Shown piece after piece: positions 22,341-22,525 of a stretch of 64,000 bases of DNA. Source of the stretch: Escherichia coli (GTDB taxonomy: Bacteria > Pseudomonadota > Gammaproteobacteria > Enterobacterales > Enterobacteriaceae); the NCBI RefSeq assembly GCF_003790525.1, contig NZ_CP033635.1; one strand, 5' to 3'. The first letter of the stretch is position 1. Each line of letters opens with the position of its first letter. The position numbers and the translations under genes are program-made. Below the pieces are notes generated by a model. The model had not been told where the DNA came from. It made no database searches and saw nothing but the letters and a program-made list of their open reading frames with translations.

Positions 22341-22525
22341 TGGTGGAGCTGGCGGGAGTTGAACCGGCGAGCCTTTCGGCTCCCCCACACAGACCGCCAT
22401 AAATCGCGAATGTGACTGTGCAAACGATATGAGAGAAGACGCGGGCGCGTCTCATATCGCTCCGTAAACATCCGGGACGCCAATCCCGACAACCGATTTT
22501 GCGGTTGCGTGGGGAATATAGCCCC
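22341..22525 (-). ncRNA. structured tRNA/tmRNA-like element ending in the exact ssrA 3' 25-mer (possible att-core relic or phage RNA)
   Basis: Minus strand ends ...GGTTCAACTCCCGCCAGCTCCACCA; 5' end GGGGCTA; several internal hairpins; no long ORF. Confidence 0.3.

What the first reader, a model, noticed from the sequence alone, without database searches (positions are those of the whole stretch)
22341..22525. Structured tmRNA/tRNA-like element carrying the exact ssrA 3' 25-mer inside the prophage, near an attR that lies in ompW
The minus strand ends in GGTTCAACTCCCGCCAGCTCCACCA, identical to the 3' end of E. coli tmRNA (T-loop, acceptor 3' strand, CCA), and the candidate 5' end GGGGCUA could pair with it as a tmRNA/tRNA-Ala-like acceptor stem including G3:U. 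Between them are several strong hairpins (for example GAGCC-GAAA-GGCUC and a long imperfect palindrome around GACGCG-CCC-GCGUC). Outside the terminal 25-mer the sequence is not ssrA, and the base just 5' of the identity breaks the T-stem, which favours an att-core relic of an ssrA-integrating element over a functional tRNA fold. The real attR of this prophage is in ompW, about 200 bp further right. So this is either a fossil second att site showing a mosaic history or an uncharacterised phage-borne structured RNA.
Basis: partly seen in the sequence, partly recalled or inferred. Interest (0 to 1): 0.6.

Follow-up and report, generated by a model that had tools for sequence, protein, structure and literature searches.

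The report
Truncated phage antisense-RNA gene fused to ssrA att scar
This is not a tRNA- or tmRNA-like gene: it is a recombination scar at a prophage end, where a known phage regulatory RNA module (IsrK/a1b1 plus the first half of a C4 antisense RNA) is joined to the 25-bp attachment core of a phage that integrates into ssrA, which records ordinary phage mosaicism.

Summary
The 25-mer is real, at 22365..22341 on the minus strand. It is exactly the experimentally defined attP/attB core of the ssrA-integrating phage PhiNP.

The "structured" sequence upstream of it belongs to described RNA families:
- An intact promoter.
- An IsrK / c4-a1b1 RNA (Rfam 69 and 51 bits).
- The first 43 nt of a C4 antisense RNA, cut in its second hairpin.

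ARAGORN finds nothing, and the Rfam tmRNA model scores 22.5 bits against a threshold of 47.

Downstream, the sequence from the 25-mer to dinI matches the ssrA-proximal end of ssrA-integrated prophages.

Extant relatives reconstruct the history:
- Strain C8 has two intact tandem C4–antirepressor modules next to the ompW att site.
- Sixteen genomes (LH50-c type) have the second C4 interrupted by the ssrA core.
- The window, matched only by TUM1886 among 5,426 genomes, has additionally lost 743 bp. This includes the C4 3' half and the antirepressor gene, and the deletion lies between two 26-bp repeats.

The original joint sits at the 5' edge of the T-loop. That position suggests integrase-mediated secondary-site recombination, but this step is unproven.

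The finding is ordinary in kind and of modest interest.

The parts
22728..22853 (+). Displaced 3' fragment of ompW, marking the outer boundary of the prophage (ompW att junction at about 22728).
   Evidence: In 99.8%-identical TUM1886 the same bases are annotated as a partial OmpW pseudogene (L007 2948..3073 maps to window 22853..22728). Thousands of genomes with intact ompW match only query positions 1-73, i.e. window 22800..22728. The TUM1886 prophage has xis-int next to a full-length ompW at its other end.
22546..22727 (-). AT-rich arm of the ompW-type att site.
   Evidence: It is conserved at 92-98% among unrelated ompW-integrated prophages (UMNF18, C8, LH50-c) from the ompW junction to the promoter.
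22515..22544 (-). Sigma-70-type promoter of the IsrK/C4 module (TTGACA, 18 nt, TATATT).
   Evidence: It matches 11 of 12 consensus positions. The same promoter sits in front of every intact module examined.
22432..22508 (-). IsrK-like sRNA, equivalent to the a1/b1 target hairpins of C4 plus an intrinsic terminator hairpin (GAGACGCG-CCC-GCGUCUU). The U-tract is weakened to CUUCUCUC.
   Evidence: Rfam isrK gives 69.2 bits (gathering score 50). Rfam c4-a1b1 gives 51.2 bits (gathering score 46.7) at 22521..22469. There are two T>C changes in the U-tract relative to C8 and LH50-c.
22362..22404 (-). First 43 nt of a C4 antisense RNA gene: the 5' strand of the closing stem, hairpin 1 (GAGCC-GAAA-GGCUC) and the 5' strand of hairpin 2. 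The rest of C4 is missing (hairpin 2 3' strand, the b' antisense segment, the closing-stem 3' strand).
   Evidence: These bases match intact C4 genes base for base up to ...GGCTCGCCGGTT. Rfam C4 scores only 28.5 bits (gathering score 45) here, against 75-79 bits for intact relatives.
22362..22387 (-). The single remaining copy of the 26-bp direct repeat TGGGGGAGCCGAAAGGCTCGCCGGTT, at which a 743-bp deletion joined C4 copy 1 to the older C4 copy 2::core joint.
   Evidence: LH50-c carries both copies, with the C4 3' half, b2 and the ORF6N antirepressor gene between them. The window aligns to LH50-c in two blocks that meet inside this repeat.
22341..22365 (-). 25-bp core of a PhiNP-type ssrA attachment site, equal to the last 25 nt of tmRNA. 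Its first 4 nt (GGTT) are shared with C4.
   Evidence: It is identical to the experimentally mapped PhiNP attP/attB (PMC6456863), to positions 1-25 of the PhiNP record and to the 3' end of E. coli ssrA.
22221..22340 (-). Homologue of the P' arm of ssrA-integrating prophages. It contains GGAC-N9-GGACA, which is conserved in PhiNP and in the E. coli O145 ssrA prophage remnant. These may be arm-type integrase sites (inference).
   Evidence: Over the 280 nt after the core, identity is 81% to the DNA that follows ssrA in E. coli O145 RM9872 and 63% to PhiNP. BLAST matches are (H40; H49-51).
22189..22220 (-). Strong intrinsic terminator (14-bp stem plus a U run). It would end any read-through transcript from the IsrK promoter.
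21851..22130 (-). LexA box (TACTGTTTATCCATACAGT, 22130..22112) and a DinI-like gene (22069..21851). dinI is the first gene after the ssrA core in ssrA-type prophages.
   Evidence: The sequence and ORF are. TUM1886 annotates a DinI-like protein here. The same synteny, core followed by dinI, is seen in PhiNP and next to E. coli ssrA.

Best explanation
The interval is a composite scar, not a gene for a tRNA-like RNA. Read on the minus strand from the ompW junction inward, it consists of:
(1) the arm of the ompW-type att site;
(2) an intact promoter and an IsrK-type sRNA carrying the a1/b1 hairpins and its terminator;
(3) the first 43 nt of a C4 antisense RNA gene;
(4) joined inside C4 hairpin 2, the 25-bp core and P' arm of a PhiNP-type ssrA-integrating phage, followed by that phage type's dinI gene.

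In intact relatives this module is a P1-immI / Gifsy-1-IsrK-type switch. One promoter makes a1b1/IsrK, C4 and an antirepressor mRNA, and C4's b' segment pairs with b1 and b2 to hold antirepressor expression down.

History, shown by extant intermediates:
- An ompW phage carried two tandem C4–antirepressor modules (state C8).
- The second C4 was then joined at GG|TT, the 5' edge of the T-loop sequence, to an ssrA-type core. This replaced everything distal to it with the tail-end arm of an ssrA-type phage (state LH50-c).
- Finally, recombination between the two 26-bp C4 repeats deleted 743 bp (state window/TUM1886).

Inferred:
- The second step was catalysed by the ssrA-type integrase acting on C4 hairpin 2 as a secondary site. 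For example, attP x C4 recombination between two phage genomes, packaged cos-to-cos, would yield the hybrid in one step. I put this at about 0.5.
- The remaining module can at most make an orphan IsrK/a1b1 RNA and a read-through RNA of about 320 nt. It has lost C4 function and its antirepressor, so it is dead as a switch.
For: - RNA family assignments in the window.
- Intact modules with C4 at 75-79 bits: Stx phages and prophages at the ompW att site.
- The window equals intact C4 up to GCCGGTT and then switches to the ssrA core.
- The core is identical to the PhiNP att site, mapped experimentally: PMC6456863.
- P' arm homology and dinI synteny next to genuine ssrA.
- Empty site (C8: C4-2 intact, 58.4 bits, followed by a second ORF6N gene) versus occupied site (LH50-c), with identical upstream flank.
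- The 26-bp repeats and two-block alignment that define the 743-bp deletion.
- The junction 47-mer occurs once each in exactly 17 of 5,426 genomes, always beside ompW. The deleted form occurs only in TUM1886.
- Two metagenome contigs show the LH50-c form.
- Fold statistics: intact C4 z = -4.6; chimeric pieces z = -1.7 and -0.35.
- For an integrase origin: the breakpoint lies within the 4 nt GGTT at the left edge of the 25-bp core. In PhiNP the phage-specific base at position -1 stays on the P-arm side, so exchange occurs to the right of -1. Both observations fit first-strand exchange at the boundary between T-stem and T-loop.
- Mechanism of the intact switch: PMC4825925 and Weinberg 2010, PMC2864571.
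- The C4 precursor is an RNase P substrate, as cited in PMC4919922.
Against: - Nothing contradicts the anatomy.
- The integrase step is weak. Sequence similarity of intact C4 genes to the ssrA T-arm/acceptor 29-mer is unremarkable: about 19 of 30 aligned positions, and more than 1,000 windows in 384 kb of control DNA score as well.
- No reciprocal joint (P arm–core::C4 3' half) was found.
- All 17 genomes trace to one event, so recurrence is not shown.
- The crossover position of this integrase family is not experimentally known to me. Williams 2002 and 2003 could not be read.
- Expression of the remnant was not tested.
Confidence: 0.85

Rival explanations
1. The older C4::core joint arose by illegitimate, microhomology-mediated recombination or replication slippage between a C4 gene and an ssrA-type attP or attL, without integrase. 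The present anatomy is the same; only the mechanism of step 2 differs.
For: - The partners share a short microhomology: GGTT, or CGCCGGTT if the donor attP had C at position -1. One metagenomic ssrA-type att site does have C there.
- C4 is not a statistically outstanding match to the ssrA core.
- No reciprocal product was found.
Against: A random breakpoint would have to fall within a few nucleotides of the left edge of the 25-bp core. It would also have to fall at the equivalent stem/loop boundary of a hairpin in the partner. I estimate a coincidence of the order of 1 in 100.
Confidence: 0.4
2. The element encodes a functional tRNA- or tmRNA-like RNA (acceptor stem, T-arm, CCA), processed or charged like tmRNA.
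For: - It has an exact tmRNA 3' 25-mer ending in CCA.
- Rfam aligns GGAGCCG with CAGCUCC as a 6/7 acceptor stem.
- In LH50-c the upstream GGGGC can pair with GCUCC in the tmRNA register, including G3·U.
- C4 RNAs are themselves RNase P substrates (PMC4919922).
Against: - ARAGORN is negative in the window and in relatives.
- tmRNA scores 22.5 bits against a threshold of 47.
- The T-stem has a C·C mismatch.
- The minimum-energy fold is not tRNA-like and is not better than shuffles.
- The window arrangement is a recent deletion product seen in 1 of 5,426 genomes, and the deletion changed the candidate 5' strand.
Confidence: 0.03
3. It is a complete, still usable second attachment site, either an attP for an ssrA integrase or a live attB landing pad for PhiNP-like phages inside the prophage.
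For: The whole 25-bp identity segment defined as attB for PhiNP is intact, and the P' arm is present.
Against: - The P arm and an ssrA-type integrase are absent. Upstream is C4, and the only integrase of the TUM1886 prophage lies next to ompW.
- None of the 17 genomes shows a second element inserted there or a second copy of the joint.
- The left core-type half-site differs from ssrA (GCCGG versus GCGGG).
Confidence: 0.1

Closest known systems
Gifsy-1 isrK–orf45–anrP locus of Salmonella (Hershko-Shalev et al. 2016, PMC4825925); Rfam RF01394
   Same: It has the same promoter-proximal 77-nt RNA, with two hairpins and a terminator (69 bits). In relatives the same read-through design leads into an antirepressor gene.
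   Different: In the window the downstream target region and the antirepressor gene are deleted, and the terminator U-tract is weakened. The module sits at the prophage end next to att, not in the nin/Q region.
Phage P1/P7 immI region: c4 antisense RNA with a1b1/a2b2 targets controlling icd-ant (Rfam RF01695, RF03163; Weinberg 2010, PMC2864571; C4 precursor cut by RNase P, Hartmann 1995 as cited in PMC4919922)
   Same: It has the same order (promoter, a1b1, C4) and the same C4 architecture in intact relatives. In those relatives b' is complementary to b1 and b2 with matched allele specificities, GGCG versus GGAA.
   Different: Only the 5' 43 nt of C4 survive here. b', the 3' closing strand, b2 and ant are gone, so no antisense control is possible.
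attL of ssrA-integrated PhiNP-type prophages (Magaziner et al. 2019, PMC6456863)
   Same: It has an identical 25-bp core followed by a homologous P' arm and dinI, in the same orientation relative to the upstream RNA gene.
   Different: The upstream partner is a phage C4 gene instead of the 338-nt body of ssrA. The site lies inside an ompW-integrated prophage, and no matching attR or integrase is present.
Secondary-site (pseudo-attB) recombination by lambda-family tyrosine integrases, and tDNA-fragment 'fossils' used to map islands (Islander, PMC4383910; the lambda secondary sites are from my own knowledge)
   Same: A tDNA 3' fragment marks a past integrase-type joint. The breakpoint lies at the edge of a loop flanked by an inverted repeat.
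   Different: The target would be a tRNA-like phage RNA gene rather than a chromosomal site. Integrase involvement is inferred, not shown.

Membership tests
tmRNA / tRNA-like RNA | Covariance-model or ARAGORN detection of a full tRNA-like domain | tested here: not met
   ARAGORN finds 0 genes. Rfam RF00023 scores 22.5 bits against a gathering score of 47, covering only the acceptor and T-arm columns.
tmRNA / tRNA-like RNA | A transcribed 5' acceptor strand pairing with CAGCUCC, plus an intact 5-bp T-stem | tested here: not met
   GGGGCTA lies in the promoter spacer and -10 hexamer. The T-stem has a C·C mismatch. The minimum-energy fold is not a minihelix.
tmRNA / tRNA-like RNA | Fold conserved in homologues | tested here: not met
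   The arrangement is present in 1 of 5,426 genomes. The parent arrangement has a different 5' strand.
IsrK sRNA (RF01394) / c4-a1b1 (RF03163) | Score at or above the gathering threshold, with two hairpins and a terminator behind a promoter | tested here: met
   The scores are 69.2 bits (threshold 50) and 51.2 bits (threshold 46.7). The promoter matches 11 of 12 positions. The U-tract is weakened.
IsrK sRNA (RF01394) / c4-a1b1 (RF03163) | A downstream cis target and antirepressor gene on the read-through transcript | tested here: not met
   These are deleted in the window and present in C8, LH50-c, UMNF18 and Stx phages.
C4 antisense RNA (RF01695) | Full structure: long closing stem, two hairpins, single-stranded b' segment; score at least 45 bits | tested here: not met
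   The score is 28.5 bits. Only the 5' closing strand, hairpin 1 and half of hairpin 2 are present. Intact relatives score 58-79 bits.
PhiNP-type ssrA attachment site | The 25-bp core identical to the ssrA 3' end | tested here: met
   25 of 25 positions match.
PhiNP-type ssrA attachment site | P' arm and adjacent dinI, as in genuine ssrA lysogens | tested here: met
   Identity is 81% over 280 nt to the E. coli O145 ssrA-adjacent prophage remnant, and dinI is next.
PhiNP-type ssrA attachment site | P arm (the ssrA-mimicking TTTCGGACGC upstream of the core) and a cognate integrase, i.e. a complete attP | tested here: not met
   Upstream is C4. The TUM1886 prophage integrase is the ompW-adjacent one.
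Integrase-mediated secondary-site joint | Breakpoint at the integrase's strand-exchange position | tested here: inconclusive
   The breakpoint lies within GGTT at the core's left edge, consistent with the constraint from PhiNP position -1. The true cleavage sites are unknown.
Integrase-mediated secondary-site joint | Target resembles attB more than background DNA does | tested here: not met
   The C4 right half matches 12 of 18 positions, and 113 such sites occur in 284 kb. The gapped score is unexceptional.
Integrase-mediated secondary-site joint | A reciprocal joint exists, or the reaction can be reconstituted | not testable with these tools
   No reciprocal joint was found in the window, the LH50-c prophage or the E. 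coli collection. A recombination assay is needed.

The most novel reading that the evidence does not exclude
C4-type antisense RNA genes are RNase P substrates, with a G-rich 5' strand, a T-arm-like hairpin and a ...CCACC(A) 3' strand. On this reading they act as natural secondary attB sites for integrases that target the tmRNA gene. Integrase-driven recombination, rather than homologous recombination, would then have swapped the integration module of a lambdoid phage from ssrA to ompW in one step. The surviving 25-bp core inside the prophage might still be a usable landing site for PhiNP-like phages.
Probability: 0.3. Interest if true: 0.5.

Novelty: new member of a known kind. Interest (0 to 1): 0.3.

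Why it matters
- **Annotation.** An exact tmRNA 3' end inside a prophage, flanked by strong hairpins, looks like a novel tRNA-like RNA. Here it is a known att core abutting known regulatory RNAs.
- **Phage biology.** Extant intermediates (C8, then LH50-c, then the window) document step by step how a lambdoid phage end was rebuilt and how an anti-immunity switch (C4–antirepressor) was destroyed. What remains is an orphan IsrK/a1b1 RNA that could still interact with cognate modules of co-resident prophages.
- **Possible mechanism.** If the joint was made by the ssrA-type integrase, it would be an example of site-specific recombination creating phage mosaic boundaries and changing integration specificity.

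Tried and rejected
- **tRNA/tmRNA gene.** ARAGORN and Rfam were both negative.
- **Second copy of the core.** I searched the window with up to 3 mismatches and the 50-kb LH50-c prophage. There was none, so no matching attR.
- **Reciprocal joint (P arm–core::C4 3' half–ant2).** BLAST against the window and the LH50-c prophage and megablast of the C8 second module against 5,426 genomes found nothing. The one partial hit, EcPF40, is an intact module of a P2-like phage.
- **Native attP of E. coli ssrA phages.** I considered that C4'::core might be the natural attP. This was rejected because the 47-mer occurs only beside ompW, and PhiNP's P arm mimics ssrA rather than C4.
- **P arm of the closest E. 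coli ssrA prophages.** The two examined, O145 RM9872 and NJS001, are remnants without int or attR.
- **Wider distribution.** The junction has 0 hits in IMG/VR and 0 in GTDB species representatives. There are 3 metagenome contigs: two of the LH50-c type, and one unrelated ssrA-type att site with C at position -1.
- **C4 as a close sequence mimic of the ssrA core.** Statistical tests do not support this.
- **C4-like closing stem.** Rfam's weak C4 alignment pairs GGCGGUCUGU with the P' arm ACAGGACUGC. I judged this fortuitous because that 5' strand was brought there by the later deletion.
- **Papers.** Hartmann 1995 and Williams 2002/2003 are not held. Statements about them rest on citations in reviews and on my own knowledge.

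Full report
**Observation.**
- On the minus strand the window reads ...GGGGGAGCCGAAAGGCTCGCC-GGTTCAACTCCCGCCAGCTCCACCA-TTTTTGACAGG..., with the 25-mer at 22365..22341.
- The 25-mer is unique in the window. None is expected by chance even with three mismatches.
- It equals the last 25 nt of E. coli ssrA.

**The tRNA-like reading fails.**
- ARAGORN finds no tRNA or tmRNA in the window or in related loci.
- Rfam's tmRNA model reaches 22.5 bits against a gathering score of 47, and does so only through the 25-mer plus a makeshift 5' strand, GGAGCCG.
It is therefore upstream of the transcript.
- The 46-nt and 64-nt 3' pieces fold no better than shuffled sequence (z = -0.35 and -1.7) and not as an acceptor/T-arm minihelix. 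An intact C4 relative folds with z = -4.6.

**What the structured part is.**
- Rfam at gathering thresholds reports IsrK (RF01394, 22508..22432, 69.2 bits) and c4-a1b1 (RF03163, 22521..22469, 51.2 bits).
- A sensitive scan adds a sub-threshold C4 antisense RNA match (RF01695, 22404..22318, 28.5 bits against 45).
"GAGCC-GAAA-GGCUC" is C4 hairpin 1.
- In related phages the complete module is present: promoter, a1b1/IsrK, C4 at 75-79 bits, a b2 target, then an antirepressor gene. This is seen in the nin region of Stx phages such as phi24B.
- The complete module also occurs immediately inside the ompW att site of E. coli prophages: UMNF18 leading to a Rha-family gene, and C8 and LH50-c leading to an ORF6N gene.
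- b' of each C4 is complementary to the b1 and b2 of its own module, with two specificities, GGCG and GGAA.
- This is the P1 immI / Gifsy-1 IsrK design. In Gifsy-1, the isrK promoter drives both the short sRNA and a read-through mRNA for an antirepressor-like protein whose translation the RNA controls (PMC4825925). c4 and c4-a1b1 were defined as motifs of proteobacteria and phages by Weinberg et al. (PMC2864571). The C4 precursor is an RNase P substrate (Hartmann 1995, as cited in PMC4919922).

**What the 25-mer is.**
- Homology between the window and intact modules stops at ...GGCTCGCCGGTT. Intact C4 continues TTCCGTACCCGGTAG..., whereas the window continues CAACTCCCGCCAGCTCCACCA.
- From the 25-mer onward the window matches the start of the Citrobacter phage PhiNP record (positions 1-66, H40). 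It also matches the DNA that follows ssrA in E. coli strains carrying an ssrA-adjacent prophage remnant, at 81% over 280 nt. In every case the next gene is DinI-like.
- The PhiNP attP/attB has been mapped experimentally to exactly this 25-bp sequence (PMC6456863).
- PhiNP's own P arm reads TTTCGGACGCT before the core, an ssrA mimic with a mismatch at -1. It is not C4.
- The window therefore carries an attL-type joint in which the first 43 nt of a C4 gene stand where the body of ssrA would be.

**History reconstructed from extant states.**
- *State C8 (L009).* This strain shows an uninterrupted arrangement next to ompW: module 1 (a1b1/IsrK, C4-1, ORF6N ant1), immediately followed by a second C4 (C4-2, 58.4 bits) and a second ORF6N gene.
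- *State LH50-c.* LH50-c and 15 other complete genomes have the same DNA up to C4-2 hairpin 2. There the sequence switches to the 25-mer, P' arm and dinI.
- LH50-c thus carries two copies of TGGGGGAGCCGAAAGGCTCGCCGGTT, one in C4-1 and one in the truncated C4-2, 743 bp apart.
- *State window.* The window aligns to LH50-c in two blocks that meet inside this 26-bp repeat. It lacks the C4-1 3' half, b2 and ant1. Its left block is 98% identical to C8 module 1, and its right block is 98.6% identical to LH50-c.
- The window form is therefore a deletion, or an unequal crossover, between the two repeats.
- The junction 47-mer occurs once each in exactly 17 of 5,426 complete E. coli genomes, always beside ompW. 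The deleted form is found only in TUM1886, which is 100% identical over 191 nt.
- The junction is absent from IMG/VR and from GTDB species representatives. It appears in two metagenome contigs of the LH50-c type.
- In TUM1886 the prophage is about 49 kb, with xis-int next to a restored full-length ompW at its far end.

**How the older C4-2::core joint arose (inference).**
- The breakpoint lies within the four bases GGTT shared by C4 (GCCGG|TTTCCGT) and the ssrA-type site (GC[G/T]GG|TTCAACT). This is the 5' edge of the T-loop sequence and the left edge of the 25-bp core.
- In PhiNP lysogens the phage-specific base at -1 stays with the P arm, so exchange occurs to the right of -1. The joint requires exchange to the left of +5.
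- This is what first-strand exchange by a T-loop-type tyrosine integrase on a secondary site would give. The sublocation concept comes from Williams 2002 and is from my own knowledge, because the paper is not held.
- A single attP x C4-2 exchange between two phage genomes, followed by cos-to-cos packaging, would yield the observed hybrid: tail end and dinI from the ssrA-type parent, with the immI module, ompW attP and int from the other parent.
- Against this, C4 is not a statistically notable match to the ssrA core. It matches 12 of 18 positions in the right half and about 19 of 30 with a gap, and more than 1,000 equally good windows occur in 384 kb.
- No reciprocal joint was found, and all occurrences trace to one event.
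- Microhomology-mediated illegitimate recombination remains a serious rival. I put the integrase origin at about 0.5.

**Present function.**
- The promoter and the IsrK/a1b1 RNA are intact, but the terminator U-tract has two T>C changes.
- Read-through would run through the C4 stump and the tmRNA-derived 25-mer to the strong terminator at 22220..22189.
- Without b', b2 and an antirepressor gene, the switch is dead. At most, an orphan a1b1/IsrK RNA could act in trans on cognate modules elsewhere. This was not tested.

**Verdict.**
- The tRNA-like and uncharacterised-RNA readings are wrong.
- The feature is a new instance of known kinds and of modest interest.

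Noticed in passing
window 22431-22440 and 22393: The IsrK terminator U-tract reads CUUCUCUC here and in TUM1886 but CUUUUUUC in C8 and LH50-c. There is also a G>T change in the C4 closing-stem 5' strand. Both fit decay after the module lost its target.
   Followed up: partly
window 22477-22486 with 22343-22352 (minus strand): In the minimum-energy fold of the 177-nt transcript, the b1 hairpin sequence GGGAUUGGCG pairs with the ssrA-derived CGCCAGCUCC. 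The tmRNA acceptor 3' strand resembles the lost b' segment (ACGCCAACCC). This is probably coincidence.
   Followed up: no
L008 3636-3704 (E. coli LH50-c): In the parental arrangement, the C4-2 5' strand GGGGC can pair with GCUCC-ACCA in the same register as the tmRNA acceptor stem, including G3·U. ARAGORN still finds nothing.
   Followed up: partly
L010 (E. coli LH50-c, NZ_CP100500.1 2337000-2386900): This hybrid prophage has its integrase next to yecE while its other end abuts the ompW fragment and the trp operon. That implies a large chromosomal inversion between prophages at yecE and ompW. In TUM1886 both ends are in ompW.
   Followed up: no
L002 (PP818812.1, 'Actinobacillus phage vB_Apl-pPE4'): A phage recorded as infecting Actinobacillus carries an IsrK/C4 module 91.6% identical to the E. 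coli one, plus hok/sok and typical lambdoid nin-region genes. The host assignment looks doubtful.
   Followed up: no
L001 1-25 and L004 4409-4433 (PhiNP OR565852.1): The record is labelled circular but carries the 25-bp core at both ends, which are prophage-style coordinates. As a circle it would duplicate the core.
   Followed up: no
L014 81-130 (metagenome contig Ga0105251_10004332): This is another ssrA-type att site. Its arm mimics ssrA (GTAGAAATTTCGGACGC) but has C at position -1, just as PhiNP has T there. Phage copies seem to differ from ssrA exactly at the base before the 25-mer.
   Followed up: no
window 11264-12472, 20501-21709, 12531-15155: There are two copies of an IS256-family transposase gene, called IS1414 in TUM1886, and an IS66-family element. 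They are inserted in the tail-fibre and cargo region of the prophage.
   Followed up: no
window 18164-19597 (+) and 19659-20114 (+): A YadA-like (Eib-type) adhesin ORF has four near-identical tandem repeats of about 38 aa. It is followed by a small protein with a sigma-factor-like HTH, and both lie in the prophage cargo region.
   Followed up: no
window 45195-45368 (+) and 31162-31255 (-): Rfam finds the STnc180 sRNA (113.9 bits) and the trp operon leader (89.4 bits) in the chromosomal part of the window.
   Followed up: no
L009 3397-4290 (E. coli C8): Tandem C4–antirepressor modules of two different antisense specificities (b' ACGCCAACCC and GUUCCAACCC) sit back to back on one transcript direction, next to the ompW att site.
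   Followed up: partly
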